Origin: Cereibacter sphaeroides 2.4.1
GTDB lineage: Bacteria > Pseudomonadota > Alphaproteobacteria > Rhodobacterales > Rhodobacteraceae
Direction of reading: 5' to 3'
Length of the DNA stretch: 32,000 nucleotides
Assembly (NCBI RefSeq): GCF_000012905.2
Contig: NC_007493.2
Span: forward strand, 2,340,001-2,372,000
The translations under genes and the position numbers were made by a program. This document shows positions 225 to 19,400 of this stretch, in pieces. Every line of letters starts with the position of its first letter. Within the stretch, counting starts at the first letter, position 1. Below the pieces are notes generated by a model. That model did not search any database, was not told where the DNA came from, and was given only the letters and a program-made list of their open reading frames with translations.

Positions 225-244
225 CCTCGCCTCCGTCTCTTCCT

Positions 245-274
245 GCCCGCCCTCTCCCGCCGGACAGGGCGGGC
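245..274. other. GC-rich stem-loop (9-bp stem gcccgccct/agggcgggc, 12-nt loop) in the coaBC-dut spacer
   Basis: The perfect inverted repeat was read directly from the sequence. Its function is unknown. Confidence 0.4.
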
Positions 275-289
275 TTCGGGTCGCGCTTT

Positions 290-318
290 CATTCTGGTCC
301 AAATATCCCCGCCGGAGG
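290..318. repeat. Intergenic motif copy 1 (cattc-tggTCCAAATATCCccgccggagg)
   Basis: An AT-rich core TCCAAATATCC with a preceding CATTC and a following G/C-rich tail. A second copy in the same orientation lies at 28477..28509. Both copies are in minus-strand intergenic spacers. Confidence 0.4.
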
Positions 319-329
319 CGCACGCATCC

Positions 330-1520: not shown

Positions 1521-1582
1521 TCCGTGCCCCCCGAGGCCGAAGCCAAGCTGTAGGGGCCCGGGCCGGGCGTGACAAGCCGCTC

Positions 1583-3285: not shown

Positions 3286-3325
3286 CAGGACCCCCTGTCG
3301 AACCCGGCCGCGTCTCGGGATTTAC

Positions 3326-3351
3326 TACGGAAAAAACACATGTCCGGATCA
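3326..3351 (-). promoter_or_regulatory. ECF sigmaE (RpoE/ChrR group)-type promoter for rpoH: TGATCC-N16-CGTA
   Basis: The minus strand reads TGATCCggacatgtgttttttcCGTAgtaaatcc. The -35 is at 3351..3346 and the -10 at 3329..3326, about 40 nt upstream of the rpoH ATG. This matches my recollection of the R. sphaeroides sigmaE consensus (TGATCC, ~16-nt spacer, CGTA-like -10). rpoHII is a known direct sigmaE target. Confidence 0.55.
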
Positions 3352-3894
3352 CATATTTTCGCGCTGCCCCCGCTCACGCTTGTGCTGGGAGGGGCGCGGT
3401 CCGGAAAATCTCGGCTGGCGGAACGGCTTGTCATCGGGTCGGGCCGCCCCATGTTCTACCTGGCCACCGCCGAACCATGGGATGACGAGATGCGCGAACG
3501 GATCGCGGCTCACCGCCACGACCGGGGCAGCGGCTGGCAGACCGTCGAAGAACCGCGCCATCTCTGCCCTGTCTTGTCACGGATGCCTCCCGAGGCTTGC
3601 GTCCTGCTGGATTGCGCGACGCTCTGGCTGACCAATCATCTGCTTGCGGAAAGCGACCTCGATGCCGAAATCGCCTCGCTTCTTCATGCGCTTGGGGCCT
3701 GTGCGGCGCCCGTTGTCGTGGTGTCCAACGAGGTGGGGTGGTCCATAGTTCCCGAAAATTCTTTGGCAAGGCGCTTCCGCGACGAACAGGGACGGCTGAA
3801 CCAGCGCCTCGCGGCGCAGGCGGAGCTGGTGGTGGCCGCCATGGCGGGGCTGCCGCTCCCGCTGAAGGGCCGCCTGCCCGAGGGGTTCGCATGA
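3340..3894 (+). CDS. cobP: Adenosylcobinamide kinase / adenosylcobinamide-phosphate guanylyltransferase
   Basis: MSGSHIFALPPLTLVLGGARSGKSRLAE... carries a P-loop and shows CobU/CobP-family collinearity over 184 aa. I placed the start at the ATG at 3340. The rest of track ORF 2419..3894 is antisense to rpoH. Confidence 0.85.
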   Translation: MSGSHIFALPPLTLVLGGARSGKSRLAERLVIGSGRPMFYLATAEPWDDEMRERIAAHRHDRGSGWQTVEEPRHLCPVLSRMPPEACVLLDCATLWLTNHLLAESDLDAEIASLLHALGACAAPVVVVSNEVGWSIVPENSLARRFRDEQGRLNQRLAAQAELVVAAMAGLPLPLKGRLPEGFA

Positions 3895-4469
3895 CGCGCC
3901 TGCACTGGGTGCGCCATGGGCCGACGCACGCAACCGTGATGGTGGGCTGGACCGATCGGCCCGCCGATCTCTCCGATGGGGCGGCCCTCGCGCGGCTGGA
4001 TGCGGCGCTGCCGCGGGAAGCGCGGCTCGTCTCCTCCGATCTCTGGCGGGCAAGGGCCACGGCCGACCGGCTCGCCGAGGGCCGCCTGCGGCTACCCGCC
4101 GACCCACGCCTCCGCGAAATCCATTTCGGCGCCTGGGAGGGCCGCAGCTTCGCCGAGATCGAGGCCGGCACGCCGCAGCGCATGCGCGCCTTCTGGCAGG
4201 AGGCCGGCCCCGCCCGCGCCCCGGGGGGCGAGACCTGGCACGAGCTTCAGGCCCGCGTGACCGAGGCGCTGCAGTCGCTCTGCGCCGCACACCCGGACGA
4301 GGAGATCGTGATCGTCTGCCATTTCGGCCCGATCCTCGTGGCCCTGCAGGTGGCACTGGGCCTCGGCGTGCAGGAGGCTTTCGCCCATCGGATCGAGCCT
4401 TTGTCGATCACCTCGATGACATTGGTGGGGGGCAACTGGCGCGTCGAGGCGATCAACCGCCTCGCCTGA
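3891..4469 (+). CDS. cobC: Histidine-phosphatase family protein, probable alpha-ribazole-5'-phosphate phosphatase
   Basis: [13 protein letters not shown]... carries the RHG catalytic motif of the PGAM/histidine phosphatase family. Its ATG overlaps the cobP stop (ATGA at 3891..3894), implying translational coupling. Confidence 0.7.
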
Positions 4470-4606
4470 GGCCGGCTGCGGCGACGCATCGCGCGCACCG
4501 GCCTCCGGCAGCCCGCCTGCAGCTGTTCCCCGCCCTGCAGGAAAGTGGCCGGCTCCCGCAGCATCCTGTTGCAGCCGCCTCGGCAAGCCGCTATACCGCG
4601 CCCAAC

Positions 4607-4683
<77 letters not shown>

Positions 4684-4763
4684 GAAATCAGACAGTTAGC
4701 GGTTAGCTGGACAGCAGCGCCACGGATACGCCCCGGAAACCGGCGGTTTCGAGCGCTGCGCGG

Positions 4764-5030
4764 TCATTTCCGTCGCCTCTCCATCGCCTCGACGGCGCTC
4801 GCCTGATGGTCCGGATGGTGGTGGGCATAAACCTCCTCCATCGTCTCCCGCGACACGCCGAAGAAACCGCCCGCCTCCCACATGTCGGCACCCCGCTGCA
4901 TCGCCCAGGTGATCGCCGTGTGGCGAAGGACATGCGGCGTCGTGTCGGACAGATCGATCTCGCGCCCCGCCTTCGCCGCCAATTCGGCGGCCTTCACCAC
5001 GGCTCCCGCCCAGGCCTTCTTGATGTCGGC
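4764..5030 (-). pseudogene. Tyrosine recombinase (phage-type integrase) C-terminal fragment, fused in frame to the cas3 relic
   Basis: The last ~88 aa of track ORF 4764..6443 read ADIKKAWAGAVVKAAELAAKAGREIDLSDTTPHVLRHTAITWAMQRGADMWEAGGFFGVSRETMEEVYAHHHP. This contains the HxLRHT box and the catalytic Tyr region of tyrosine recombinases. The N-terminal two thirds of an integrase are missing. The fragment points toward the tRNA-Arg 3' end. The junction position is approximate (+/- 15 nt). Confidence 0.75.
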
Positions 5031-6761
5031 GACCCGGTTGTCCCGCTCTCCGTCCCGACCGACACGCGCCAAAACCTCGGCCTCGATCCGCTTGCGATCC
5101 GCCAGGGCGAAGCGGGCGTGAAGCAGTTGGGCTGCCACGCTGCGCGCACGCAGCGCTGCGACCGCCTCGATTGCGTCATCCACCGAGTTTCGCACCCAGA
5201 CACAGGCCGCTCCCCTCCGCACCGCCTCCGCCAGAAGGTCGGCCGCGTCCTCGGCCTGCTGCACCCGGGTGACGCGAACGGCTCCCTTCACCGGACGTCT
5301 ATCGGGTGGAAATTCCACCCTCGCCTCCCCTCCCGCCAAGGTGAGCGCCGGGTAGGCAGGTCCCGGATTGTCTCCGCCATACGTCGCCAGCAAGCGTCCC
5401 CGCAATGCCATAGGCAGGGTCGCCGTCGGCAGAATGGCCGAACCTCCGGCCGCGCGGTGCGTCTGCAAGAGGCGCTCCAGTTCGCGCCCGATGTAGGGTT
5501 CGCCCATCTCATGCACCTCATCCTCAATCAGGATCTTGGAGGAGAGGCCGAAGTGCCGCAGGGTCTGGTGTCGGACAGGCAGCACGGAGAGCAGGGCCTG
5601 ATCGATCGTGCCCACCCCCACATCGGCCAGAAGGGCGCGACGGCGGCTTTCGGCAAGCCATTGGGTGCAGGATGCTGCATCCTCCGCTCGGGGCTTTCCG
5701 ACCACGAGGTCGCGGAAGCCCTCGGACAAGCCAGCGCGACCGTGTGCGAGAGTCAACGACGGCGCAGTCAGCATCCGTCCGATCACCTGTTCCGCGCGGC
5801 TGAACATCGCGTCGCTGGTCGCCATGGTGGGCAAGGCAAAGTAGAGACCGCGTCCCTTGCCTGCCGCGATCATCCGATGCGCCAGAAGGAGCGCCGCCTC
5901 GGTCTTGCCTGCGCCCGTTTCATCCTCGATCACGGCCAGCGTCGGGCCCGACGGCAACAGGATCTCGGCGCAGGCGGCCTGCAACGGGCGCAGCGCGAAG
6001 TCGAACAGGCGTCCCTGTTTCACGGCGCTCCCCGCCAGACCGGCCGCAGAGACGGCTTCTTCGGCGCGAGCCTGGGCGCAAGCCAGATAGGCCGCAAGTT
6101 CCGGCCGAGTGCCATCCGGCGGAAACCACATCATGTTGGAGCCAATCCAGTCTGCCGCCATGCGGAGCCCGGGAAGGCACCAAGACAAGGCGGTTGTATC
6201 CACCCCGCACTCGAGCCCCGACAGCGAGGCTTCGGGCCAAAGGTCACAAAGCGCCTCGATCACCTCGGCCGCCGGCTCCAGGCCCGAGCCTAAAGATGTG
6301 AGCGCCGCCCGAAGCCCCCGCGCGGCGGTCGGAAGCCCGGGCCGCCCACCGAGATCGAGATCCGACGGCTGGCCATGATGGCCGGCAACGGACGCGTAAA
6401 GCGCTTGCCGTTGGCGCCAGGTCCCGCCGATCCTTCTCGCCAACCGCTCGTCATGCGCGAAAAGAAGCGCCTCTGTCAGTTGCCAGTGCCTGAACTTCTA
6501 CGGCTGGCCGCTTTCGATCATGGCGCGGAAGCTGTCGCTGATCTTTCCAAGGTCGTGCAACGCCACGAGCAGCACGAGGGCGCCGCGCAACGCCGGCTCG
6601 AACTGGAAAGGTGCAATCAGGCGCTCGGCCACGGCCGCTACGTCCAGCATGTGCAGCACGGCGGAATGCCTGACGGTTGAGCCGTCCGGTGCACTCTTTC
6701 CGGGCCAATCGAAAAGCTGATTGGTTACCTCGCTCGCCGCCACTCTTCCCTGTCCGCCCAC
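5031..6761 (-). pseudogene. cas3: Type I-E-like CRISPR-associated nuclease/helicase Cas3, interrupted by an in-frame TAG and truncated at the 3' end
   Basis: The HD domain is in ORF 6498..6761 (FDWPGKS...HSAVLHMLDVAAVAERL...LLVALHDLGKISDSFR). The same frame continues after the TAG at 6500..6498 into VAGHHG, AADWIGS, VIEDETGAGKTEAALL (motif I), YFALPTMATSDAM, GVGTIDQALLSVLPVRH, ILIEDEVH (motif II), PTATLP (motif III) and LLHARFALADR. It is collinear with E. coli YgcB/Cas3 as I recall it. The match ends where Cas3 motifs V/VI and the C-terminal domain should follow. Confidence 0.8.
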
Positions 6762-7134
6762 CGACTCACAGATCGCCCCAACCTACACTCATCGCCACCT
6801 TGCTCTCCGTACGGCAATTAGTCTTCAGCTTTTACCTCATGCGAGCCCCCTGCCCTCCGCCCATTATGGTGGGGCCGGGTTTGGACGGCTGCGGCTAAAG
6901 GTCTTCGGCGGCAGCTTCAACCACCCCGCCCATGCGGGGCGGCTCCCAGCTCAATCCCAAAGCTGCCGCCCGCGCGAGCCGCAGCGAAAGACCGCAGGCG
7001 GCGCTCTGCCGCCCTTCGGGACCCGCGCAGCATGACGCCAAGTGCCGGCACGCCGGGCTGAAAGCCGACTTGTAGCGCTGCCGCGCGGCACTCGCAGCGA
7101 AACTCGGCAAGAGGAGAAGATTCTCGCTTCTCGA

Positions 7135-7161
7135 TGTCACAACCGCCTTCCCTCGCCCGTC
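7135..7161 (+). promoter_or_regulatory. ECF41-type promoter TGTCACA-N16-CGTC
   Basis: The sequence is gaTGTCACAaccgccttccctcgccCGTCatgg, with the -35 at 7135..7141, a 16-nt spacer and the -10 at 7158..7161. It sits ~32 nt upstream of the CMD-family ATG and its AAGGAG RBS at 7181. It is an exact match to the group ECF41 target promoter motif as I recall it from Wecke et al. 2012. Confidence 0.7.
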
Positions 7162-7192
7162 ATGGGGGTGTCAGTTGCAAAAGGAGAGAGCG

Positions 7193-7666
7193 ATGACGCC
7201 CCGCATGACCGACCATTTCAAACGCATCGGCCAAGCCTTCCAGGGACTGGTCACCTTCGAGACCGAACTGCGCAAGGGTCCCCTGGAACCAGCGCTGCTG
7301 CATCTGGTGAAGATGCGCGCCAGCCAGCTCAACGGCTGCGCCTTCTGTCTGCAGATGCACGCTTCCGAGGCGCTGAAGGACGGCGAAACCCACCTGCGGC
7401 TGCACATGCTGGCGGGCTGGCAGGACAGCTCGCTGTTCTCGCCGCGCGAACGGGCGGCGCTGGCCTGGACCGAGGCAGTGACGCTCATTGCTCAGAGCCA
7501 CACGCCGGATGCGGACTGGGAGGCGCTACGCGCCGAATTCTCCGAGGATGAGGCGGCCTATCTAACCTTCGCCATCGCGGCGATCAACCTGTGGAACCGA
7601 ACCCAGATCGCCTTCCGCGTGGCCCATGCCACCGAGCTTCCGGCCGAGCGCGCCCGTGTCGCCTGA
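7193..7666 (+). CDS. Carboxymuconolactone decarboxylase (AhpD-like) family protein, ECF41-associated 'COE' gene
   Basis: LHLVKMRASQLNGCAFCLQMH carries the CxxC..H AhpD-core motif. An AAGGAG RBS lies 6 nt before the ATG at 7193. The TTG at 7175 used by the track is less likely to be the start. Confidence 0.8.
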   Translation: MTPRMTDHFKRIGQAFQGLVTFETELRKGPLEPALLHLVKMRASQLNGCAFCLQMHASEALKDGETHLRLHMLAGWQDSSLFSPRERAALAWTEAVTLIAQSHTPDADWEALRAEFSEDEAAYLTFAIAAINLWNRTQIAFRVAHATELPAERARVA

Positions 7667-8516
7667 CGTCTACCTGCAGATTTTCGAGACGCGGCGGCCC
7701 CAGCTGCTGCGTCTTGCTTATCGGATGCTGGGCTCCCATGCCGAGGCCGAAGATGTGGTACAGGAGGCATGGATCCGCTGGCAGGCCGCCGATCAGGCAC
7801 AGATCGCCATCCCGGCGGCTTGGTTGAACCGGGTGGTGTCGCGCCTCTGTCTGGACCTGATGCGCTCGGCCCGGCACCGTCGCGAGAGCTACATCGGGCC
7901 TTGGCTGCCCGAACCGCTGATTGAAGAGGAGGATGCCGATCACCGCCCGGACAACCTGACCCTGTCGCTGATGATGGCGCTGGAGCGGCTGTCCCCGCTG
8001 GAGCGTGCCGCCTTCCTTCTGCATGACGTCTTCGGCCAGTCCTTCGATGAGGTGGCGCTGGCCCTCGACCGCTCACCTTCAGCGGCACGCCAGCTGGCGG
8101 TGCGCGCGCGGGCACATGTCCATATCGACCGCCCGCGCTACAAGGTGGAGCGCGAGGCAGCGGAAGGCCTGACCCGCGCCTTCTTCGAGGCCTGCAAGAC
8201 GGGCGATGCGGCGGTTCTGTCGGGCCTCTTGGCCGAAGACGCGGTGCTGCATTCGGACGGTGGCGGCAAGGTCTACAACCTGCTGAACGTGATCGTGGGC
8301 GCCCAAAAGCTGCTGCGGATGTTCACCAGTCTGTCGCGCAAGCGGGGGGACGAGATGGAATTCGTGCAATTCACCTTGATCGACGCTCTTCCCGGCTATG
8401 TCTGGCGAATGGGAGACCAGATCCAGACCACCGCGCTGGAGGTCGAGGACGGCCGCATCACCCGGGTCTACACGACACGCAATCCCGACAAGCTGACCCG
8501 TATCAGGCTCAACTGA
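7626..8516 (+). CDS. ECF sigma factor, group ECF41 (SigJ-like) with fused C-terminal SnoaL-like regulatory domain
   Basis: Sigma2 and sigma4 regions are present, plus all three ECF41 signature motifs: WLPEP, DGGGK and NPDKL. No anti-sigma gene is adjacent. The start is uncertain: ATG 7626 gives a 41-nt overlap with the CMD gene, and GTG 7656 gives an 11-nt overlap. Confidence 0.85.
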   Translation: MPPSFRPSAPVSPDVYLQIFETRRPQLLRLAYRMLGSHAEAEDVVQEAWIRWQAADQAQIAIPAAWLNRVVSRLCLDLMRSARHRRESYIGPWLPEPLIEEEDADHRPDNLTLSLMMALERLSPLERAAFLLHDVFGQSFDEVALALDRSPSAARQLAVRARAHVHIDRPRYKVEREAAEGLTRAFFEACKTGDAAVLSGLLAEDAVLHSDGGGKVYNLLNVIVGAQKLLRMFTSLSRKRGDEMEFVQFTLIDALPGYVWRMGDQIQTTALEVEDGRITRVYTTRNPDKLTRIRLN

Positions 8517-8969
8517 TCGTGCCACAGGGGGGCGGCTTCCGGGTACGCGGCCACGCAGCATTGGTCGAGGCCGACCGGCAGCTTTGGGCCGGGTGCGCAT
8601 GGTTGGGCGAGCCGCGTCCTTCCGAGCGCGGTGTCCGCTAGATGCGCATCGCGGCCATCAGAACGCGGCACGGCGAAGGCGCGCAGGCAGCTCTGCGGAC
8701 ATGCGACCCTCCCGGAGCTGCCGCCGAAGCGGCCGCTTGCGCGTGCCGAAGCGTGAGGCGCGCGCAGCGCTTTGCTGACCGTCGAGCCCATTGCGGCATG
8801 GCCAGCGGCACCGACGCGGCAGGCGGGGAGCGGTCTGACGGCGGCGCGGCAGGGTGGTCGCAGAAACCCACGCTAGCGGACGCTCGCTCCGATGCAGCAA
8901 TTGGCAGCGATGCGGAGGAAGCGGACCGTAATTCCCAAGGGCGCCTTCCGATGTTGACGCCATTCACGT

Positions 8970-9353
8970 TCATTCAGGTCCCTGAAACACCGCTTCAACG
9001 TTGTTTCCAGCCGGATCGATGACGAAAGCCGCATAGTATCTGTCATGATAACTCGCGCGTACGCCCGGGGCGCCGTTGTCTATTCCGCCAGCGATCACGC
9101 CTGCGGCATGAAATGCCTGCACCTCTTCACGGCTCCCGGCACGAAAGGCCACATGAACCGGAGCGGGCTCTGTTCCCTGAACCTCAGTGAGGAAGAGCTC
9201 GACGCGGTCGCGCCCGAAGCCGGCAACATTGCCTTCGGCGCGCTCCACATAGAACCTCCTGTCTATGCCCAAGGTCGCGAGGGCTGCTTCATAGAACCGC
9301 CGGGTCTCTTCCAGACGGGTGGTTCTGAGGCTCACATGATCGAAAATGCTCAT
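8970..9353 (-). CDS. VOC (glyoxalase/bleomycin-resistance/dioxygenase) family protein
   Basis: 127 aa: MSIFDHVSLRTTRLEETRRFYEAALATLGI...HVAFRA...YYAAFVIDPAGNNVEAV, a typical VOC fold signature. Confidence 0.8.
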   Translation of the reverse strand: MSIFDHVSLRTTRLEETRRFYEAALATLGIDRRFYVERAEGNVAGFGRDRVELFLTEVQGTEPAPVHVAFRAGSREEVQAFHAAGVIAGGIDNGAPGVRASYHDRYYAAFVIDPAGNNVEAVFQGPE

Positions 9354-9397
9354 CCGGCTGTCCTTTCATTGACTGCCTTGATTGTCCGCAGGCGGTG

Positions 9398-10204
9398 TCA
9401 GACGGTCGGCAGCATTCCCCCGTCCAGGCGAAGGTTCGAGCCGGTGATGTAAGAGGCGCGGGGACTGGCGAGGAAGGCCACGGCATCCGCGATCTCATCC
9501 AGCGTGCCAACCCGTCCTGTGGGGACGCTCGCGAAGAGTGGAAGGGCCTCTGCTTCCACCACTTCCCATGGCGCTTCCGGCGCAATGCCCCGCTGCTGCG
9601 CCACCTCGCGAAACTTGCGGTCGAGCTTCTCGCTGTGGATCGTGCCGGGAGACACGGTATTCACGGTCACCCCATCGGCCGCAACGGCCTTGGCCATCGA
9701 GGCAGACATCGCCAGCATCGCGGCCTTGGCGGCCGAATAGTCCGGGTTGCCGGCAGGTGGCATCAGCGCGGCGAGGCTGGAAATGTTGATGATCCGTCCC
9801 CACCCGGCATGGCGCATCTGTGGCAGGACCGCCTTCGCAATGCGCATGGCCGCCAGCACGTTGGCATCATAAGTTGCTGCCCATGCGCCAGCCTTTGTCG
9901 TGGCCCAGTCCGAATTCCCGCCCGAGCCGCCTGCGTTGTTGACGAGGATGTCGATGTCTCCGATGGCGCGCACCTCAGCGAGAAGAGTATCAACCTCCGC
10001 TTCCTCTGTCAGATCCCCCGTCACGACATGCGCCGTTCCGCCGTCCTGCCGGATTTGCCGCGCCACGGCAGTCGCTTGTTCCCGGTCGCGCCCGTGAACC
10101 ATCACCACCGCGCCTGCGCGTGCCAGCCCGCGTGCGATACCGGCGCCGATGCCCTTGCTGCTTCCGGTCACCAAGGCAATCTTACCTTCGAGATGTAGAT
10201 TCAC
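9398..10204 (-). CDS. SDR-family oxidoreductase
   Basis: GKIALVTGSSKGIGAGIA is the TGxxxGxG motif. NNAG and a YSAAK catalytic motif are also present. The GTG start is preceded by AAGGAG. Confidence 0.85.
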   Translation of the reverse strand: MNLHLEGKIALVTGSSKGIGAGIARGLARAGAVVMVHGRDREQATAVARQIRQDGGTAHVVTGDLTEEAEVDTLLAEVRAIGDIDILVNNAGGSGGNSDWATTKAGAWAATYDANVLAAMRIAKAVLPQMRHAGWGRIINISSLAALMPPAGNPDYSAAKAAMLAMSASMAKAVAADGVTVNTVSPGTIHSEKLDRKFREVAQQRGIAPEAPWEVVEAEALPLFASVPTGRVGTLDEIADAVAFLASPRASYITGSNLRLDGGMLPTV

Positions 10205-10246
10205 GGTCGGGCTCCTTTTATGGTGAAGCCATGATGTAGGAACGAC

Positions 10247-10630
10247 ATGATGGACCCCTCAAGAACGCACAAAAAGGTGCCTGTGGCCGAGCTCGATCGG
10301 AGTGCCTGCCTCGGACCGGATGGCGCGGTGGCTCAGGTCGCCCGGTGCCTGAAGATGATCAGCGGACGATGGAAGCTGCCTATCCTTTTCCGACTTTATG
10401 CCGATGGGATGCAGCGCAGTTCCCTGCTCCTGCGCGACATTCCCGACGTTTCGCAGAAGATGCTGACCCAGCATCTGCGCGAACTCGAGGACGACGGACT
10501 GGTCCGGCGGACGGATTTCGGTGAAAAGCCCCCACGGGTGGAGTATCGCCTGACTGACCGTGGCGAAGCGCTGATGCCCGTGTTGCTTGCTGCACGCCAG
10601 TTCTCGGAGGAACACGATCGAGCTGTCTGA
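10247..10630 (+). CDS. HxlR-family winged-helix transcriptional regulator
   Basis: ISGRWKLPILFRL...QKMLTQHLRELEDDGLVRR...PPRVEYRLTDRG matches the family. The gene is divergent from the SDR gene across a 42-bp spacer. Confidence 0.85.
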   Translation: MMDPSRTHKKVPVAELDRSACLGPDGAVAQVARCLKMISGRWKLPILFRLYADGMQRSSLLLRDIPDVSQKMLTQHLRELEDDGLVRRTDFGEKPPRVEYRLTDRGEALMPVLLAARQFSEEHDRAV

Positions 10631-10903
10631 TCATGCGGGACCCGGCTCGCGCGATCCCCTTTCATCTGGGCGCTCTTGGGCAGGTGCTGCTATCCGTGCG
10701 TGCACCTGACGATGCCCGTTTCGGGCGGCCTCGGACTCTTGCTCTTTCGGCGTGAAGGCCCGCTTCGGGTCAAGCCTGCCTGCTGCGAGCCGGCCCAACG
10801 GACGGCAAGCGGCCTGTGGTTGCGGCATCCGCGGAGTGGCCGTAGCCGCAGTTCGCGGGTCTCCCTGTGGACGGTGCAGGACGCAAGAGGTGCCGCTGGT
10901 TGC

Positions 10904-11533
10904 TCAGGGTTGCGGTCGCTCCATCAGGACGAGGCGCAGCCCCACTGCAACGAGCAGGCCACCCGCAGTCCGCTCCAGCCAACCCCGCAGCTTCAGCGAC
11001 TGGCGCAGGCGATAGCCTATCGATCCCGCCAGAAGTGCCATTCCTCCCTCGACCACCAAGGCCACCACCCGCATGAGGATGCCCAGGAAAACGAATTGGG
11101 CCATCACCGATCCGTCTTCCGGGCGGACGAACTGCGGCAGGAAGGCCAGAAGGAAAATATGACTCTTGGGGTTCACAAGGCTGGCGATGAAACCTTCCTT
11201 GATTGCGGCTCCAGTAGAGGCATGATCGGCCGAAACGGTATCTCCCTGTCCTGCATTGCGGATCATCACGATCCCGCGCCACATCAGATATGCACCACCG
11301 CCATAACGCAGGACGTCGAAAAGCGCGGGGCTGCCAGCAACGACGTTGGCAAGTCCAAAGGCAAGCAGCGGCACCTGGATGAAGCCCGCGAGAAAGAAGC
11401 CGAAAGCGGTGAACAGGGCGGCGGCCCGACCTTGAGAGATGCCGCGCCCCACGATCAGGAAAAGATCGGGGCCGGGCGTGATCGTCAGAACGATCACCGC
11501 AGACACGAACATGAAGAGTGTGACGCAATCCAT
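10904..11533 (-). CDS. LysE/RhtB-family amino-acid (or homoserine-lactone) exporter
   Basis: MDCVTLFMFVSAVIVLTITPGPDLFLIVGRGISQG...NPKSHIFLLAFLPQFV matches the family. I placed the start at the ATG 11533; the upstream part of the track ORF is junk. The gene is visibly lower in GC than the core genes. Confidence 0.8.
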   Translation of the reverse strand: MDCVTLFMFVSAVIVLTITPGPDLFLIVGRGISQGRAAALFTAFGFFLAGFIQVPLLAFGLANVVAGSPALFDVLRYGGGAYLMWRGIVMIRNAGQGDTVSADHASTGAAIKEGFIASLVNPKSHIFLLAFLPQFVRPEDGSVMAQFVFLGILMRVVALVVEGGMALLAGSIGYRLRQSLKLRGWLERTAGGLLVAVGLRLVLMERPQP

Positions 11534-11820
11534 TTCAAAACGCCCACAGATGGAGGATAACGCACTTTTACAGAGCACCTGACCGTGCGCAACGGAGTGC
11601 GAGCGCCTCTTGCTGCGACTCGCTTCACCGGCGGTCTGCGCACGGCTTCCGTCGCAGGCTCGGGTATCTGCAAGCCTTCGCTGACCTCTGACCATGACTG
11701 CCGCAGCCTGCCAGTCGTTGATTGCCGCCCCGACAGACAGTCAGATGACTTCGCAGCCATTGCTGCCATGGCCTTGCTCTCTTATCCTCACGGCATCCCG
11801 CGAACACTGGAAGCCGCAGC

Positions 11821-12333
11821 ATGAATTTCCGCACCGGGCAGCCGTCTGACGCAGCTGCTCTTGCCGCAATTTCAATCGAAGTCTGGCTGGGGACCTATAT
11901 GCGGAAAGGCGTCAGCGCCTTCTTTGCTGAATATGCCTTGAATGAGTTCACATCGACAAAGATGGCGTCACTGCTGAAGGATCCGAATGAGCATGTGATT
12001 GTGTCGGAAAACGAAGGCGGAATTGACGCATTCATCCGCCTCGGTCAAGGCAGAGCAGCTCCTGTCTCCGGCTGTTCGACCTTGGAGATAGCAACTCTCT
12101 ACGTTCAGCCGAGACACCACAGGAGGGGACTCGGGCGCGCCCTTCTCGAGCAGGGCCTGGCCTACGCACGTCAAGCAAGTGCTCCATCGGTCTGGTTGAC
12201 AACCAATTCCGAAAATGCACCAGCGATTGCATTCTATCTCGAGCAGGGTTTTGAGAAGGTCGGCACCACGCACTTCAATATCGGGGATCAGGCGTACCTG
12301 AACGATGTCTTCAGACGCATCGTGTCAATGTGA
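11821..12333 (+). CDS. GNAT-family N-acetyltransferase
   Basis: 170 aa. LYVQPRHHRRGLGRALLEQGLAYAR is the acetyl-CoA binding Q/RxxGxG/A motif, and AIAFYLEQGFEKVG follows. This is the lowest-GC stretch in the window by eye. Confidence 0.8.
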   Translation: MNFRTGQPSDAAALAAISIEVWLGTYMRKGVSAFFAEYALNEFTSTKMASLLKDPNEHVIVSENEGGIDAFIRLGQGRAAPVSGCSTLEIATLYVQPRHHRRGLGRALLEQGLAYARQASAPSVWLTTNSENAPAIAFYLEQGFEKVGTTHFNIGDQAYLNDVFRRIVSM

Positions 12334-12741
12334 ACACCCTCGACCGGCAGCCAGGGGCTACTCAGCCTCTCGCCGAGACGTGCCTGAACGGCGGTTTCGG
12401 AGGGCCCCGTGCGGTGAACGAGCTTCGGCTCAGGGCCGAAAGCTGCGGGTGATGCGGCTGGGGATGTGCGATCAGCAACAACCGCTTCCTGTGCATCACA
12501 TCGCTCCCGGAATGCACCGAGGGCGGCCGGATGCACCAGATTCCGCGAATGGACTGCAGCGACCTCGCAGGTCGCTCCCCGTTCAAGCGCACCGCGATCC
12601 TGCCTGGCGGCACCCTCTGGACTTGAGATGGGCCGCTGCGGAATCGGCGGCTCCTACCGCTCATCGTTGCAGTTGAGCTCTCCCAAGCCTTGGCGCATCT
12701 GCTCGACGTCTGCACCGTGGTGCGTGTTCAGGCGCTTCCGG

Positions 12742-13659
12742 TCACTCGATCGTCAAGACGATCTTGCCGCGCACACGGCCCGCTGCGGACAAGGCGAGCG
12801 CCGCCTTGACGTCGACAAAGGGGAAGGTCTTCTCGACGTGGGGTGTAACTTTGCCTGCCTCGACGAGCGCCGTAATTGCCCGGATGCTGCCGGCATTCGC
12901 CGCCGTGAAAGCCCGCTTGACGCGCACTCCGTGGGCTTTGGCTTCCTCTCCGTCGGGGAAGGCCACAATCGTGACCATAATCCCGCCCTTTCTCAACGTC
13001 GTGAGGGCTCGCTGGAACGTGTCGCCTCCGACGGTGTCGAGCACCACATCCATGTCATGGACGATCTCCTCGAACGGCCTCGCAGTATAGTCGACCACCT
13101 CATCGGCGCCGAGGGCGCGAACGAACTCCGCGTTGCGCGCCGAGGTCATGGCTGTGACATGCGCGCCCTTGGCTTTGGCCAGTTGAACGGCAAGCGAGCC
13201 GACGCCACCGGACGCGCCGGTGATCAGCAGGCGTTGACCGGCGCGGAGCCCCGCTTCATCGAACATGGCCTGCCAAGCCGTCGTGCCCGCGAGCGGCAGC
13301 GCCGCCGCCTGCGTGATGTCGAGATTTCCGGGCTTGCGCACGATATCGGCCGCATTGACCGCGACATATTGCGAGAAGGCGCCGGTCCTGACCATGCCGA
13401 AGACGATCTCCCCGCGCTCGAAGCCCGCGACGCCTGGGCCGATGTCCTCGATCGCGCCGACGAACTCGCCGCCCAGATGGATCGGAAGCGTCAGCCCCAT
13501 CCGTTCCCCCGCTCCGTCCCGGATCTTCCAGTCGATCGGGTTGACCCCCGCGGCGCTGACCTTGATCAGCACCTCGCCGGCCTGAGGGGAGGGACGTTCC
13601 ACCTCCGCCACCTCCACCACGTCGTTGGCGCCATAGGCGTTGATGAGGACCGTGAGCAT
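12742..13659 (-). CDS. NADPH:quinone oxidoreductase-like medium-chain dehydrogenase/reductase (MDR)
   Basis: 305 aa with a GroES-like N-terminus (EVLIKVSAAGVNPIDWKIR) and a Rossmann motif (LITGASGGVGSLAVQLAK). Confidence 0.85.
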   Translation of the reverse strand: MLTVLINAYGANDVVEVAEVERPSPQAGEVLIKVSAAGVNPIDWKIRDGAGERMGLTLPIHLGGEFVGAIEDIGPGVAGFERGEIVFGMVRTGAFSQYVAVNAADIVRKPGNLDITQAAALPLAGTTAWQAMFDEAGLRAGQRLLITGASGGVGSLAVQLAKAKGAHVTAMTSARNAEFVRALGADEVVDYTARPFEEIVHDMDVVLDTVGGDTFQRALTTLRKGGIMVTIVAFPDGEEAKAHGVRVKRAFTAANAGSIRAITALVEAGKVTPHVEKTFPFVDVKAALALSAAGRVRGKIVLTIE

Positions 13660-13752
13660 GCGTTGACCTTGTCGCTTGGTGATCGTTCCCTGTCCTGCTA
13701 GCAGAGTCTCTCATCGACGTGTCGCCAACCTGCATCGCGGAACCGCCACCCC

Positions 13753-14496
13753 ATGACGCGGCCCTTCACCTTGACGCGCCTGCGTAAGCCGCGCGGAGAG
13801 AGCCTGCCGGACCATTCCCACGGCGCGGCCCAGCTGACCTTCGCCGCCTCCGGCATGGTGCAGGTCCGCACGGAGGACGGCGTCTGGCTGGTTCCGCCCC
13901 AGCTGGCGGCCTGGATCCCGCCGGGTGCACCGCATCGTCTGGACATCCTGACAGATGCCGATCTGTGGATGATCTTCTGGGAGCCGTCGGCAATGGCCTG
14001 CTGGATGCCCGGGACCTTCCCCGCCCGCGCCTTCGTCTCGCGCGTGTCGCCGCTGCTGCGCTCGCTTCTGGATGCGGCCACGGCGGCCGATCCGGCATCG
14101 GAGAGGGTGGAGCTCATGGTCAGGCTGATCCTTCACGAATTGACAGCGACCGAGGAGGCGCCCACCTTCCTTCCGCGGCCGACGAGCGCGGAGGCTCGGC
14201 GCGTGGCGGATCTCGCGCTCGCTGACCGCCGTAACGAGCTGGACCTCGACACCCTTGCGCGCCGCGCGGCGACCTCTGTCCGCACGGCCAGCCGGCGGTT
14301 TCCGGAGGAGACCGGGATGACGCTGAAGGCCTGGCGCCAGCGCGCGCGCATCCTGTGGGCGATGACGCAACTCGGACAGGGCCAGCCCATCGCCCGGGTG
14401 GCCCGCGACGCGGGCTTCGCCAGCACGGCCGCCTTCTCTCATGCCTTCAGGCAGGTCACGACCGTCACGCCAAGCGCATTCCTCTCCCCGCCCTGA
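13753..14496 (+). CDS. AraC-family transcriptional regulator (cupin N-terminal domain)
   Basis: The cupin-like N-terminus reads HSHGAAQLTFAASG. The C-terminal AraC HTH reads TLARRAATSVRTASRRFPEETGMTLKAWRQRARI...GFASTAAFSHAFRQVTG-like. The gene is divergent from the MDR gene. Confidence 0.8.
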   Translation: MTRPFTLTRLRKPRGESLPDHSHGAAQLTFAASGMVQVRTEDGVWLVPPQLAAWIPPGAPHRLDILTDADLWMIFWEPSAMACWMPGTFPARAFVSRVSPLLRSLLDAATAADPASERVELMVRLILHELTATEEAPTFLPRPTSAEARRVADLALADRRNELDLDTLARRAATSVRTASRRFPEETGMTLKAWRQRARILWAMTQLGQGQPIARVARDAGFASTAAFSHAFRQVTTVTPSAFLSPP

Positions 14497-14834
14497 CGGG
14501 CCGCCTGTGCCTCCGATCTGGCTGCTGCGCCTGAACGGGAAAGCCGCATTGGGTGGCTGCTCCGCACCGCTGCGCGCGGCTTCGAGTAGCAGCAATGGGC
14601 CGGGTTCATCGGCCGCGCCAGGCGTGCCGCCCCGCACGCCATGTCCGCTCCTTGCACATGGCAGAGGGTCCGGCACGCCTCGGGTGCCGAACCAACGGCG
14701 AGACCGGCAGAGGCCGTCGAGAAACTCCCGGTCGGCTGCGCTGCTTGAACCCTTCCCATCAACCCAACCGGCGCAACGGTCCGGAACATCTTGACCTGTA
14801 CCGCATTAACGGCATCCGAAGAGAGGAGTTCGAC

Positions 14835-15107
14835 ATGGGATTTCTGGCACTTGACGTGACAAGGACGGGAGTGGTGCTGCGCAAGTTCGATGAACGCGGG
14901 ACGCGGATCCTCGAGCGCTTCAACACGCATGAGGTGGGGATGCGCCGGGCCCTGATCACGGCGCAGCGCGAGCTTGCCCGCGACGACGACCTGACTGAGG
15001 TTAGGGCAAATGTTCAGGAGCCCGAGCTGGCGCAGCGCCTCAAGCACTGTGTGACGACCGAAGCCAGTGACGGCGGCAAGCTTCAGGCGCTCGCAGACGC
15101 GCTCTGA
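14835..15107 (+). CDS. Hypothetical small protein (90 aa)
   Basis: The ATG at 14835 is preceded by GAGAGGAG with a 6-nt spacing. It is the in-frame part of track ORF 14553..15107. I recognised no family. Confidence 0.35.
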   Translation: MGFLALDVTRTGVVLRKFDERGTRILERFNTHEVGMRRALITAQRELARDDDLTEVRANVQEPELAQRLKHCVTTEASDGGKLQALADAL

Positions 15108-15576
15108 GTAGTGACGCCTGGCGCCTGTGGACGCGGGATGGTCAAGCCGCCCGCGCCTTCGCCGGCGCCCGAGAGCGCGGCCGAGATCGCACCATGGCCC
15201 TCGGCTTCGAGGAACCGGGCGGCGTTGTCCGGGGCGCCCTTGGTGCGGGCGAGCGCCTGGACCATGAAGCTTACAGCCACCCCGTGATGCGCCGGATCGG
15301 ACGCCACGGACGCCACGGCCGGCACGGCATCCGCGCAGCCGGAGAGCCCCGCCGCGGGCGAGGATGGGAAAGGGGCGACGGGGGAAGCCAGACGTCTCGG
15401 CTTAGGCGCGACGGGGACAAAGGCCGCGCGTCAAGGCGACGTCCGGGCACGACCCCGAGGCCGCTTTCGGAGCCGCGCCTCCTGCAGGGCGTCTCATCGT
15501 CGCAATTGAAGAGCGGTTCGAGCGAAGGATTGAAGGTGGCGGACTTTTTCGAAGGCTTCACGGAGCAGGCTGAACC

Positions 15577-15963
15577 ATGACGAAAACCGAGATCACCGAA
15601 GCCCACCGCGCCTATATCGCCTGCCTGAACCGTCAGGACTGGGAGAGGATTCACGAGCATGTGGCCGACCGGGTGACATATAATGGGGCCGTCATCGGGG
15701 TGCACGGCTACAGGAAGATGCTCGTCGAGGATTTTCGCGCGATCCCCGATCTTGCCTTCAACATCGCCCTGCTGGTCTGCGACCCTCCGGTCATCGCCAG
15801 CCGGCTGATCTTCGACTGCACGCCGAAAGACGTGCTCTTCGGATTGCCCGTGAATGGGAAACGTGTGCGGTTCGAGGAGAACGTCTTCTACCAATATCAG
15901 CAAGGGAAGATTGCGGCCGTCTGGTCGATCATCGACAAGGCGGCCGTGGCTGCACAACTCTGA
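15577..15963 (+). CDS. SnoaL-like ester cyclase / NTF2-fold protein
   Basis: 128 aa: AYIACLNRQDWERIHEHVADRVTYNG...YRKMLVEDFRAIPDLAFNI...ENVFYQYQQGKIAAVWSIID, the typical ester-cyclase pattern. Confidence 0.75.
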   Translation: MTKTEITEAHRAYIACLNRQDWERIHEHVADRVTYNGAVIGVHGYRKMLVEDFRAIPDLAFNIALLVCDPPVIASRLIFDCTPKDVLFGLPVNGKRVRFEENVFYQYQQGKIAAVWSIIDKAAVAAQL

Positions 15964-16441
15964 ATGCCTGCCGGAAGGGAGGCTCGGCCATGATGAGCGG
16001 CGCTCGGGCTGAAGGCGCACTCCGGGCTGGTTCATCGCTCCGACCGTCGCGGTTACATGATGCCGCGCCCATTCAAGCGGTCGATCGGATGGTCGGGCAT
16101 GACGCATCGGAGCCGCTATCGGGAGCGGCTCGCCGCGGCTTGCGGTCGCAGAGCTCCGGACCTGCCGCAGCGGGATCAGCCGGCAATGCCGGGCACGGGG
16201 AGTGCGGACTGCCCGGATATGAGTGATCTCGACCGATCTGAAACTGTCCGGTTTTGCCGCGGCTCAGGGCCTCCCGATATTGACCGCGCGGCCACATTCT
16301 CGGCGGGCGCCATGAAGATTGACGCACCCGGGCCGCCGCAAACCCCGGTGCGGCGCGGTGCGACCCTACGGCTTTTGGACATTGCGGTGCCGGGTGGCGG
16401 GCTCTAGTCTTCGCGCCATTCTATTGAAGTGACCGGGTTTC

Positions 16442-19400
16442 ATGGCGTTGCTGGGGTTCTTGCGATCGAGGCGAGAGGACAAGACGCCTCTCCTCGAGCG
16501 CTGTTTATCCGTCGATCTGGAAGTCCATCCCAAGACCGCCGAGATTTTCGACATGGCGGCGGTGCGGTTCGGGGATGGGCCGGCCGTCGTTGCGCCGAAG
16601 GCAAACATCCGGCAGGGACTGGATCGGCTCGAACAGGCGCTCGGCAAGGCCACGCATGTCGTAGGCCACAATATCCTGCGCCACGATATCGAGCATCTGC
16701 TGGCGGCGCGGCCGCAACTCCTCGAGAAGATGGCCGCGCCGATCGACACGCTCTGGCTCAATCCGCTGGCCTTTCCGCGCAACCCCTACCACCATCTCGT
16801 GAAGCATTATCACGACGGGCGGCTGCAGGCGGGGCATGTCAACGATCCCGAGCTCGATGCGCGTCTGGTATTCGAGGTGCTGGAAAACCAGATCGCCGCG
16901 CTGAGCGAGATCGGCGGGCGCTCGCCGGAAACCCTGATCGCCTATCACTATCTGGCCACCCGGATGGACCGGGCCGAGGGGTTCGACGCGGTCTTCTCCG
17001 AGATCCGCAGGGCACGGCAGCCCGATCGCGCCGAGGCGTTCGCGGCGATCCGGGGGCTGCTTGCCGGCAAGGCCTGCGGCGCACGGGTGGAGCCGGCGCT
17101 CGAGGCGCTGTCGGACCCGCGCGCGGGCTGGCCCATGGCCTATGCGCTGGCCTGGATCTCGGTTGCGGGCGGAGACTCGGTGATGCCGCCGTGGGTGCGC
17201 GCCGCCTTTCCGCAGGCAGCGCTGATCGTGCGCGATCTCAGGGATACCAACTGCGGCGACCCGGCCTGCGGCTGGTGCGCCGAGATGAACGACCCTGTGG
17301 GGGCTCTGCGGAAGTGGTTCGGGTTCGACGGCTTCCGTCCGCAGCCCGCGGACGCGCACGGCCGGCCGCTTCAGCAGGTCATCGTGGCCGAGGCGATGGC
17401 GCACCAGAATGTCCTCGGCATCCTGCCCACGGGCACGGGCAAGTCGGTGTGTTATCAGGTTCCGGCGCTGAGCCTGTTCGACAAGACCGGGGCGCTGACG
17501 GTGGTGATCTCGCCGCTCGTGGCGCTGATGGCCGATCAGGTGCAGGGGATGGAGCGGGCGGGGATCTCGTCGGCGGTGACCGTCAACGGCATGCTCTCGA
17601 TGCCCGAACGGCAGGACGCGCTGGATCGGGTGCGTCTCGGCCAGGCGGCGATCCTGCTGATTTCGCCCGAGCAGCTGCGCAGCGTCTCGGTCCGCGCCGT
17701 TCTGGCGCAGCGCGAGGTCGGGCTCTGGGTGCTGGACGAGGCGCATTGCGTCTCGAAATGGGGCCACGATTTCCGGCCCGACTACCGCTACATCGGGCGC
17801 TTCATCCGCGAGTTCTCGGGCGATGCGACGCCCGCGCCGGTGCTCTGCCTGACGGCCACGGCGAAGCCCGAGGTGGTGCGCGACATCACCGAGCATTTCC
17901 GCGGGCGTCTGGGGGTCGAGCTCGGGCTCTTCGACGGCGGGGCCACGCGGACGAACCTGACCTTCTCCGTGCTGGCCACGACGAAGGAAAGCAAGCTCGG
18001 CGACATCATGACGACGATCTCCGGCCATCTGCCGGCGGACGAGCGATCTGGCGCCGTCATCTACTGCGCAACCCGGGCAGAGACCGAACGCATCGCCGAG
18101 TTCCTGAAGCGTCAGGGGATTGCGGCCGAGCATTTCCACGCAGGCCTGACGCCCGACGACAAGCAGACGGTGCAGGAGCGTTTCCGCGTGGGCGATCTGC
18201 GGGTGATCGCGGCCACCAACGCCTTCGGCATGGGCATCGACAAGCCCGACATCCGGCTGGTGCTGCACGCCGACATTCCGGGCTCGCTCGAGAACTACCT
18301 GCAGGAGGCGGGCCGGGCCGGGCGAGACCGACAGCCCGCCGACTGCGTGCTGCTCTATCATTCCGACGATGTGGAGCGACAGTTCACCCTGACGGCGCGC
18401 TCGCGTCTCGAACGGCACGAGATCGGCGCCATCCTCAAGGCGCTGCGCCGCATCGACGAACACACCCGCAACAGCGGCAAGGTGGTGGCGAGCGCGGGCG
18501 AGATCGTGCGCGAGGAGAAGGACCGCGCCTTCGTGCGAGACAGCGCGACGGACGACACACGGGTCAAGACGGCGGTCTCGTGGCTGGAGGAAGCGACCCT
18601 CGTCTCGCGCGAGGAAAACCGGGTGCAGGTGTTTCCGTCGTCGCTTCTCGTTCGGACGCTCGCCGAGGCAGAGGCCCGGCTGGCGGGAGCCGGGATCACC
18701 CAAACGCGTCGCAGGCAGCTTCTCGGCATCGTGCGCCACGTCATTAACACGCCGCCCGATCAGGGCATTTCGACGGACGAGCTGACAGGCATCAGCGGGC
18801 TCACGCATCGAGCGCTCGGGAAGGCCATGGCCGATCTCGAAGCCCTTGGGATCGCGCGCAACGACCTCGCCCTCACGGTCTCCGTGCATGTGGGCATCGA
18901 GAACCAGTCGCGCCAGCGGCTGACGCGGGCGGTGCGGCTGGAAGAGGCGCTGATCGCGCGGATGCGCGAGCTTGCGCCCGAGGCCGATGTGGGCCAGGGC
19001 GCGCCGCTCGATCTGGCGGCCGCGAGCCAGGTTCTGCGGGGCGAAGGACACGAGGAGGCAAGCCCGCACATCCTCGACCGCCTTCTGCGCAGCATCGAGC
19101 GGGACGGGCGCGACAGCGACGGCGGGCGCGGCAACATCCGCCTGCGCAAACTTTCCAGCAAGACGCTGGAGGTGATCCTGCAACGCTCGTGGCGGGTGGT
19201 GGGCCAGACGGCCTCGGTGCGATGGGGGGCGGCCGAGAAACTGCTCGAAGTTCTGATCGGCAAGGTGCCCACCGGCACGAGGGGCAAGGACATTCAGGTC
19301 GAGACCACGGCGGGCGAGCTGCTGGCGGCGCTGAGCGGGGATGCGATCGCGGCGGCCGGCGTGAAGGACAGGACGAAGCTCATGGAGCGCGCGCTCCTCT

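What the first reader, a model, noticed from the sequence alone, without database searches (positions are those of the whole stretch)
4764..6761. Chimeric ORF: decayed type I-E cas3 fused in frame to an integrase C-terminus, an orphan relic of a lost CRISPR-Cas locus
The 559-aa track ORF is not a gene but a scar. Its first ~470 aa are collinear with the helicase part of E. coli-type (I-E) Cas3 up to the LLHARFALADR...GRDGERDNRV region. The sequence then switches abruptly to the last ~88 aa of a tyrosine recombinase (HVLRHT...EEVYAHHHP).

The Cas3 HD nuclease domain sits immediately upstream in the same reading frame (6761-6501). It is separated from the helicase part only by a single TAG at 6500..6498, so this is a nonsense mutation and not a frameshift. 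Cas3 motifs V/VI and the C-terminal domain are deleted.

I can find no cse/cas5/6/7, cas1/2 or repeat array anywhere in the 32 kb. This implies a deletion that joined mid-cas3 to mid-int right beside the tRNA-Arg attachment site. It records both a former island integration and the loss of an adaptive immunity locus.
Basis: partly seen in the sequence, partly recalled or inferred. Interest (0 to 1): 0.6.

Follow-up and report, generated by a model that had tools for sequence, protein, structure and literature searches.

The report
Dead cas3 fused to integrase remnant
This "gene" in a Cereibacter (Rhodobacter) sphaeroides 2.4.1-type chromosome is the front two thirds of a type I-E CRISPR nuclease-helicase gene (cas3) joined to the tail of a tRNA-linked integrase gene; it marks a lost immune locus and is an ordinary pseudogene, not a new function.

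Summary
The minus-strand ORF 4764..6443 (559 aa) has three parts:
- Residues 1-466 match residues 101-566 of an intact 843-aa type I-E Cas3 from a sister C. sphaeroides strain (97% identity, no gaps).
- Two junction codons have no assignable origin.
- Residues 469-559 match residues 273-363 of an intact 363-aa C. sphaeroides tyrosine integrase (90 of 91 identical).

The first 81 cas3 codons lie upstream in the same frame. They are cut off by a single TAG (6500-6498) at a position where 44 homologues all have Gln. The last 277 Cas3 residues are missing, including helicase motifs V and VI and the C-terminal domain.

The surviving part carries 12 replacements found in no homologue. Six fall at invariant or nearly invariant sites, so the gene is decaying.

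No cse1, cse2, cas7, cas5, cas1 or CRISPR array was found in the 4.6-Mb genome. The one exception is a roughly 165-bp relic of the cas6e 3' end on chromosome II.

The same chimera appears on dozens of public contigs, so it is not an assembly error. DNA homology to a sister species runs through tRNA-Arg into the integrase tail and stops at base 5040.

A deletion of at least 8 kb in place is the simplest origin, but I could not prove it because no DNA from an intact strain was obtainable. Interest is low.

The parts
4607..4683 (+). tRNA-Arg(CCG), the integration target of the integrase family
   Evidence: ARAGORN; Rfam tRNA at 67 bits
4638..4683 (.). Probable att core: the 3' 46 nt of tRNA-Arg
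   Evidence: In sister species G005 only window 4638-5040 is shared (97%). That is these 46 nt without the rest of the tRNA, followed by an intact integrase, about 14 kb from that genome's own tRNA-Arg. No second copy exists in this genome.
4764..5040 (-). Integrase 3' remnant: codons 469-559 of the ORF plus the stop, equal to residues 273-363 of a 363-aa tyrosine integrase. It keeps the HxxR box and the catalytic Tyr region only.
   Evidence: 90 of 91 identical to P0141. 95-97% DNA identity to G001 and G005, ending at 5040. Intact G005 integrase matches PF00589 at 166-348, 30.6 bits.
5041..5045 (-). Junction bases of unassigned origin, within codons Arg467-Asp468 (CGG GAC, 5045-5040). The six-base word repeats a CGGGAC found 12 nt upstream.
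   Evidence: Codon-level view of window against G005 and G001 DNA and against the intact Cas3 proteins, which continue ...GRDGE-GRAG
5046..6497 (-). cas3 pseudogene, part after the nonsense codon. It equals Cas3 residues 83-566: the end of the HD domain, RecA1 with GAGKT and DEVH, and the first ~60% of RecA2 up to the motif IV region.
   Evidence: Derived replacements at conserved sites.
6498..6500 (-). In-frame TAG nonsense codon replacing Gln82
   Evidence: Translation. Gln in all 8 close and 36 more distant homologues.
6501..6743 (-). cas3 pseudogene, first 81 codons (N-terminal half of the HD nuclease domain, including the HD motif). Start GTG at 6743-6741 by homology.
   Evidence: Cas3_HD profile 2-77, E 2e-10. 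Aligns to P0001 residues 1-81.
5041..19345 (.). Accessory stretch absent from the syntenic locus of sister species G001. It holds the cas3 relic, an ECF sigma module, mixed cargo genes with G+C down to 58-64%, and the 5' half of a 1,715-aa helicase gene.
   Evidence: blastn synteny; composition; Pfam; genus-wide DNA search

Best explanation
The region is a non-functional scar in a Cereibacter sphaeroides 2.4.1-type chromosome I.

Proposed history (inferred): a type I-E CRISPR-Cas operon once lay on the minus strand in the order cas3, cse1, cse2, cas7, cas5, cas6e, cas1, cas2, array. Downstream on the same strand sat the tyrosine integrase gene of an integrative element inserted at the 3' end of tRNA-Arg(CCG). 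An illegitimate, non-homologous deletion of at least about 8 kb removed the last 277 codons of cas3, all Cascade and adaptation genes, the array, any remaining element genes, and the first 272 codons of the integrase. By chance (1 in 3) the two stumps are in frame, which creates a long open frame that gene callers report.

Shown here: a separate C-to-T change turned Gln82 into TAG, and the stump has since collected replacements at conserved sites.

Consequences: nothing here can act as Cas3. It has a split HD domain, no helicase motifs V or VI, no C-terminal domain and no Cascade partner. Nothing here can act as an integrase either, because the DNA-binding half and half of the catalytic residues are missing.

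What is shown: the composition, the break points, the decay and the genome-wide absence of partner genes. What is inferred: the single-step deletion in place and the order of events.
For: Cas3 side:
- 97% identity with no gaps to intact Cas3 P0001 residues 1-566 of 843. Intact Cereibacter proteins continue ...GRDGE-GRAGFALVGTQVLEASLD, whereas the window switches after GRDGE.
- The PRK09694 match stops at position 620 of 878. Only positions 2-63 of 106 of the RecA2 profile are kept.
- TAG replaces a Gln that is invariant in 44 homologues.
- Twelve replacements are unique to the window. W189C, C194R, V407E (flanking the DEVH motif II), M428T, L439P (before motif III) and G535S hit invariant or nearly invariant columns. 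The closest intact protein differs from its relatives only at variable sites.

Integrase side:
- 90 of 91 identical to residues 273-363 of an intact C. sphaeroides integrase.
- The same gene is intact in G005, next to a 46-nt copy of the tRNA-Arg end.

Synteny: G001 matches window 1-5040 at 95% and stops exactly at the junction.

Absence of partners:
- No Cas1, Cas7e or Cse1 profile hits.
- tblastn and tblastx with three intact type I-E operons find only this relic and a 165-bp cas6e piece on chromosome II.
- No arrays and no type I-E repeats.

Reproducibility: the identical chimera occurs on 41, 13 and 24 or more public contigs under different start calls. Some copies carry further breaks.

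Operon order: relatives show cas3-cse1-cse2-cas7-cas5-cas6e-cas1 followed by an array about 8.5 kb downstream of the cas3 start, all on one strand.
Against: - The ancestral arrangement was not seen. No DNA from strains with the intact cas3 could be fetched, so I do not know that their type I-E locus lies beside tRNA-Arg.
- None of the type I-E loci examined in other genera has this integrase nearby.
- No second att copy marks the far end of an island.
- A second type I-E relic on chromosome II shows that the history of type I-E in this genome involves more than one event or site.
- Expression was not tested. The consensus promoter scan found nothing, but it does not cover alphaproteobacterial promoters well.
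Confidence: 0.85

Rival explanations
1. Same dead chimera, but not from one in-place deletion. Either several successive deletions or rearrangements produced it, or an illegitimate recombination with incoming DNA replaced the interior of the tRNA-Arg element with a segment that already carried a truncated cas3 plus cargo genes.
For: - The 14.3 kb to the right of the junction (5041-19345) is absent from G001 and mostly absent from the genus. It has lower G+C and looks like a mosaic of cargo genes and repeated elements.
- The tRNA-Arg to tRNA-Phe interval differs in every genus member. G001 shows its own independent deletions: a degraded integrase, a phage portal fragment and a helicase cut to 789 aa.
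- Five bases of unassigned origin lie at the junction.
- A second type I-E relic sits on another chromosome.
Against: - cas3 and the integrase lie on the same strand in the order a simple deletion predicts.
- There is one clean junction with no IS element or repeat beside it.
- The nearest intact Cas3 proteins (94-97% identity) are from the same species complex, one on a 3.16-Mb contig of chromosome I size. That argues for vertical presence, not a recently imported fragment.
Confidence: 0.12
2. The chimera is a working gene: a truncated Cas3 motor fused to an integrase tail, recruited for a new role such as a regulator or a dominant-negative factor.
For: - A 559-aa open frame persists, and GC3 stays at 72-88% along it.
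- The fusion is in frame and is conserved in many assemblies of the clade.
Against: - The HD domain is split by a stop, and helicase motifs V and VI and the C-terminal domain are gone.
- Replacements hit invariant sites, including next to motifs II and III.
- Other assemblies carry extra breaks inside it.
- Gene callers disagree on the start: 559, 499, 465 or 455 aa.
- None of the 120 best Cas3 relatives among 5.8 billion proteins carries an integrase domain. Of 57 relatives of the integrase tail, the only one carrying Cas3 domains is this window's own chimera.
- The high GC3 is simply inherited from two recently intact genes.
Confidence: 0.02
3. Assembly or sequencing artefact: a false join or a miscalled base creates the stop.
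For: None found.
Against: - The exact 559-aa product is recorded on 41 contigs from several sources. Its variants span the junction in slightly diverged strains with 1-5 substitutions.
- No version of about 660 aa lacking the TAG exists in the 90% identity cluster.
- The genome is 100% complete in 7 replicon-sized contigs.
Confidence: 0.01

Closest known systems
Type I-E Cas3 nuclease-helicase (E. coli YgcB type; NCBIfam PRK09694 / TIGR01587; Pfam Cas3_HD + DEAD + Cas3-like_C_2)
   Same: The HD domain, RecA1 with GAGKT and DEVH, and the start of RecA2 are colinear with family members. Identity is 97% to an intact Cereibacter Cas3 and 58% to the Cas3 of a complete type I-E operon in G033.
   Different: A nonsense codon sits in the HD domain. 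The last 277 residues are missing (motifs V and VI and the C-terminal domain). The score of 258 bits is below the 569-bit cut-off. No Cascade, Cas1-Cas2 or array exists in the genome. Replacements hit invariant sites.
Tyrosine integrases of tRNA-linked integrative elements (Pfam PF00589)
   Same: The tail is 99% identical to the C-terminus of an intact 363-aa C. sphaeroides integrase. It lies 80 nt from the 3' end of tRNA-Arg(CCG), as in G001 and G005.
   Different: Only residues 273-363 remain. The core-binding domain and the first half of the catalytic domain are deleted. The Pfam score of 20.4 is below the 27.1 cut-off. No attR copy remains.
Degraded or partly deleted CRISPR-Cas loci, such as E. 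coli and Shigella lineages that keep arrays or cas fragments after losing type I-E cas genes (from my own knowledge, not checked in a paper here)
   Same: An adaptive-immunity locus was lost by deletion, leaving a cas pseudogene. Sister strains of the same species keep the intact gene.
   Different: Here the array is also gone. The deletion end lands inside a neighbouring integrase gene and produces an in-frame chimeric ORF that annotation pipelines list as a protein.

Membership tests
Type I-E Cas3 | HD nuclease domain, uninterrupted | tested here: not met
   Both halves of Cas3_HD are present (profile 2-77 and 116-207) but a TAG at 6500-6498 separates them.
Type I-E Cas3 | SF2 helicase RecA1 domain with Walker A and DEVH motifs | tested here: met
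   DEAD profile 2-161 of 167. GAGKT and DEVH are readable, although V407E next to DEVH and L439P before motif III are derived changes.
Type I-E Cas3 | Complete RecA2 domain (motifs IV-VI) and C-terminal domain | tested here: not met
   Only positions 2-63 of 106 of Cas3-like_C_2 are kept. The alignment to P0001 ends at residue 566 of 843.
Type I-E Cas3 | Score above the curated family cut-off | tested here: not met
   PRK09694 scores 258.5 bits against a cut-off of 569. The TIGR01587 core domain scores 109.2 against 102.45 and just passes.
Type I-E Cas3 | Encoded with Cascade (cse1, cse2, cas7, cas5, cas6e), cas1-cas2 and a CRISPR array | tested here: not met
   None found in the window or the genome, apart from a 165-bp cas6e fragment on chromosome II.
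Tyrosine recombinase / phage integrase (PF00589) | Full catalytic domain with the Arg, Lys, His-x-x-Arg, His/Trp and Tyr residues | tested here: not met
   Only profile positions 118-170 of 172 remain (the HxxR and Tyr region), at 20.4 bits below the 27.1 cut-off. The intact relative covers positions 2-170.
Tyrosine recombinase / phage integrase (PF00589) | N-terminal core or arm DNA-binding region | tested here: not met
   Homology to the 363-aa integrase starts at its residue 273.
tRNA-linked genomic island | Integrase gene adjacent to the 3' end of a tRNA gene | tested here: met
   The integrase stop at 4764 lies 80 nt from the tRNA-Arg end at 4683. G001 has the same layout.
tRNA-linked genomic island | Direct repeat of the tRNA 3' end (attR) at the far boundary | tested here: not met
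   No second copy of window 4638-4683 in the window or the genome.

The most novel reading that the evidence does not exclude
The scar may be the footprint of CRISPR autoimmunity. In this reading, a spacer of the lost type I-E array matched the element integrated next door at tRNA-Arg. Processive Cas3 degradation, or selection against self-targeting, then favoured a survivor whose single deletion removed the target element, the array and the cas operon together. The two stumps would be what remains. The second cas6e relic on chromosome II would then suggest that type I-E systems have been purged repeatedly in this lineage.
Probability: 0.08. Interest if true: 0.45.

Novelty: new member of a known kind. 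Interest (0 to 1): 0.2.

Why it matters
The main value is for annotation. Public databases list this chimera as a protein of 455-559 aa under varying starts. It should be flagged as a cas3 pseudogene fused to an integrase remnant.

It also documents that the model strain lineage of C. sphaeroides lost a type I-E CRISPR-Cas system that sister strains keep. That is useful background for phage, conjugation and genome-editing work in this organism.

Finally, it marks the tRNA-Arg to tRNA-Phe interval as a decaying hot spot for mobile and defence genes. It does not reveal a new mechanism.

Tried and rejected
- Scan of one genome per species with P0001: 44 type I-E loci, best 77-79% identity, none from Cereibacter. 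None has this integrase or a tRNA-Arg downstream.
- Plasmid collection: only a 72% cas3 hit in Paracoccus, tRNA hits, and a 78-bp repeat.
- Five genus genomes: none has cas3. They could only anchor the integrase side.
- Search for attR or any direct or inverted repeat at the junction: nothing.
- Candidate arrays from a k-mer scan: C6:1131-1900 is a 75-nt tandem repeat without spacers, not CRISPR.
- A 16-nt match to a type I-E repeat at C2:188695-188710 lies inside a gene conserved in the genus. I treat it as chance.
- The Pfam Cas6e genome scan missed the chromosome II fragment. A database search with that fragment found nothing at E <= 0.001, so its source lineage is unknown.
- The E. coli control genome did not respond to the type I-E Cas3, Cas6e, Cas7e or Cse1 profile searches. 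I therefore rely on my own tblastn and tblastx searches for the claim of absence.
- Rfam and the promoter/terminator scans added nothing.
- Three papers that came up in two searches do not mention this locus.
- dN/dS could not be computed because no DNA of a close intact homologue was available. I used polarised amino-acid changes instead.

Full report
**What is there**

The window is G000:C1:2340001-2372000. The genome has replicons of 3.19 Mb, 0.94 Mb and five of 37-114 kb, at 69% G+C. These sizes, together with the source names of the closest proteins, identify a Cereibacter (Rhodobacter) sphaeroides 2.4.1-type strain.

On the minus strand, ORF 4764..6443 (559 aa, TTG start) is preceded in the same frame by ORF 6498..6761. 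One TAG at 6500-6498 lies between them. tRNA-Arg(CCG) lies at 4607-4683 on the plus strand, 80 nt from the ORF's stop codon.

**Composition of the ORF**

- Pfam finds the second half of Cas3_HD, a DEAD helicase domain, the first 63 of 106 positions of the Cas3 RecA2 profile, and the last 53 positions of Phage_integrase, which scores below its cut-off. The upstream ORF carries the first part of Cas3_HD.
- NCBIfam places the ORF in the E. coli-type Cas3 model PRK09694 at positions 214-620 of 878, with E 1e-76 and 258 bits against a cut-off of 569.
- A database search found an intact 843-aa Cas3 (P0001, C. sphaeroides). The same 90% identity cluster holds further intact proteins of 812-865 aa from C. 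sphaeroides, C. azotoformans and C. johrii.
- The read-through, with X at the stop, aligns to P0001 residues 1-566 at 97% identity with no gaps. The stop falls on Gln82, and the homology ends at ...GRDGE. Intact proteins continue from there with the motif V region.
- ORF residues 469-559 are 90 of 91 identical to residues 273-363 of an intact 363-aa C. sphaeroides integrase, P0141. They are 95% identical to integrases in two genus members. The intact G005 protein is a bona fide PF00589 member.

**The junction**

DNA identity to G001 (95%, running from window base 1 through tRNA-Arg) and to G005 (97%) stops at base 5040. The last assignable Cas3 codon is Glu466 at 5048-5046. Codons 467-468 (CGG GAC) cannot be assigned to either parent, and they repeat a CGGGAC found 12 nt upstream. 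No repeat or IS element flanks the junction. The join is therefore non-homologous, and it is in frame by chance.

**Decay**

I aligned the stump with 8 close and 36 more distant Cas3 proteins. Besides the stop, it carries 12 states found in no other sequence. These include W189C, C194R, V407E (next to DEVH), M428T, L439P (before motif III) and G535S, all at invariant or nearly invariant columns. P0001 differs from its relatives only at variable columns. This excess of damaging changes on the window's branch indicates relaxed selection.

Other public assemblies carry the same chimera with additional breaks. That also rules out an assembly artefact. The product is recorded on 41 contigs, with alternative start calls on a further 13 and 24.

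**Missing partners**

- Cas1, Cas7e and Cse1 profiles find nothing in the genome.
- tblastn with the Cas proteins of G033 finds only this relic plus one short piece on chromosome II. Pfam confirms G033 as a complete type I-E operon with an array.
- tblastx with two closer operons (77% Cas3 identity) gives the same two places above a noise level of about 45 bits.
- A k-mer scan for arrays and searches with ten type I-E repeat variants find no array.
- Caveat: the built-in E. coli control did not respond to several type I-E profiles. The absence claim therefore rests mainly on my own BLAST searches.

**Context**

G001, the closest species, is syntenic up to base 5040 and again from 19345. The 14.3 kb between is replaced there by about 3 kb.

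In this window the stretch holds a carboxymuconolactone decarboxylase-family gene and an ECF sigma factor. It also holds glyoxalase, SDR, HxlR, LysE, GNAT, Zn-ADH, AraC and SnoaL genes, with G+C down to 58%. The 5' half of a 1,715-aa helicase gene closes it. That helicase is full length in G002 and G003 but cut to 789 aa in G001.

G001's integrase is itself degraded, and a phage portal fragment lies beside its truncated helicase.

In G005 the intact integrase follows a bare 46-nt copy of the tRNA-Arg 3' end, about 14 kb from the real tRNA. A second P4-like integrase lies on the other side of that copy. This identifies 4638-4683 as the likely att core and shows that elements stack at this tRNA.

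The interval between tRNA-Arg and tRNA-Phe is thus a hot spot that has suffered independent deletions in sister lineages.

**Mechanism**

cas3 and the integrase share a strand. In all type I-E relatives the order is cas3, Cascade genes, cas1-cas2, then the array about 8.5 kb from the cas3 start. One deletion running from cas3 codon 567 to integrase codon 272 would therefore produce exactly this structure.

Its minimum size is about 8 kb: 0.83 kb of cas3, about 6.1 kb of cas genes, the array, and 0.82 kb of the integrase. This is an inference.

One intact homologue lies on a 3.16-Mb contig, which is chromosome I in size. That is compatible with the model but does not prove it.

**Complication: a second relic**

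Chromosome II carries C2:188350-188514, a fragment of the cas6e 3' end. Its first 30 codons are up to 76% identical to Cas6e in 25 or more type I-E operons, at the correct operon position. It lies in a 363-nt intergenic stretch that G001 replaces with 136 nt.

No near-identical Cas6e was found in the protein database. It may therefore be an older, separate loss. Either way, the cas3 stump is not the only type I-E relic in the genome.

**Verdict**

This is a real, well-delimited pseudogene chimera. It is an ordinary kind of genome decay, of interest mainly for annotation and for the natural history of defence systems in a model bacterium.

Noticed in passing
G000:C2:188350-188514 (L062:2350-2514), chromosome II, outside the window: A second type I-E relic: the 3' end of a cas6e gene. 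Thirty codons are up to 76% identical to Cas6e of 25 or more type I-E operons, and similarity runs on for about 54 codons across an in-frame stop. It lies in a 363-nt intergenic stretch that sister species G001 replaces with 136 nt.
   Followed up: partly
window 6858-6945 and 7119-7196: Two short repeated elements lie in the divergent spacer upstream of the cas3 start. Copies of the first are at C2:888560, C1:222799 and C2:729909. A copy of the second is at C7:25905 (95%) and on Cereibacter plasmids. No Rfam family matches them.
   Followed up: no
window 14764-15319: Two adjacent repeated segments with no Pfam hit. Copies at 81-88% identity exist on C2 (730794, 761757), on C1 (239006) and in G001, G002 and G005. 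This may be a small mobile element or an IS remnant.
   Followed up: no
L015 (G001:C140) 4600-10341: The sister species carries its own decay at the same locus. Its integrase has an internal gap and has lost about 115 N-terminal codons. A phage portal fragment is present, and the large helicase is cut to 789 aa, against 1,715 aa here and full length in G002 and G003.
   Followed up: partly
L014 (G005:C15) 8346-11051: Two different integrase genes flank a bare 46-nt copy of the tRNA-Arg 3' end, about 14 kb from the real tRNA-Arg. One is P4-like with an Arm-DNA-binding domain, and the other is the 363-aa type found in this window. This indicates tandem elements at one att site.
   Followed up: partly
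window 16442-21589: A 1,715-aa protein combines DEAD/Helicase_C (RecQ-like) and UvrD helicase modules next to tRNA-Phe.
   Followed up: no
G000:C6:1131-1900 and 2276-3028: Two long tandem repeats at the start of a 100-kb plasmid-sized contig: a 75-nt unit in 10 copies and a 137-nt unit in 5.5 copies. They have no spacers, so they are not CRISPR arrays.
   Followed up: no
tool controls: The E. coli control genome did not respond to the type I-E Cas3, Cas6e, Cas7e or Cse1 family searches, although it did respond to Cas1. Either that control strain lacks these genes or the first-look filter misses them.
   Followed up: no
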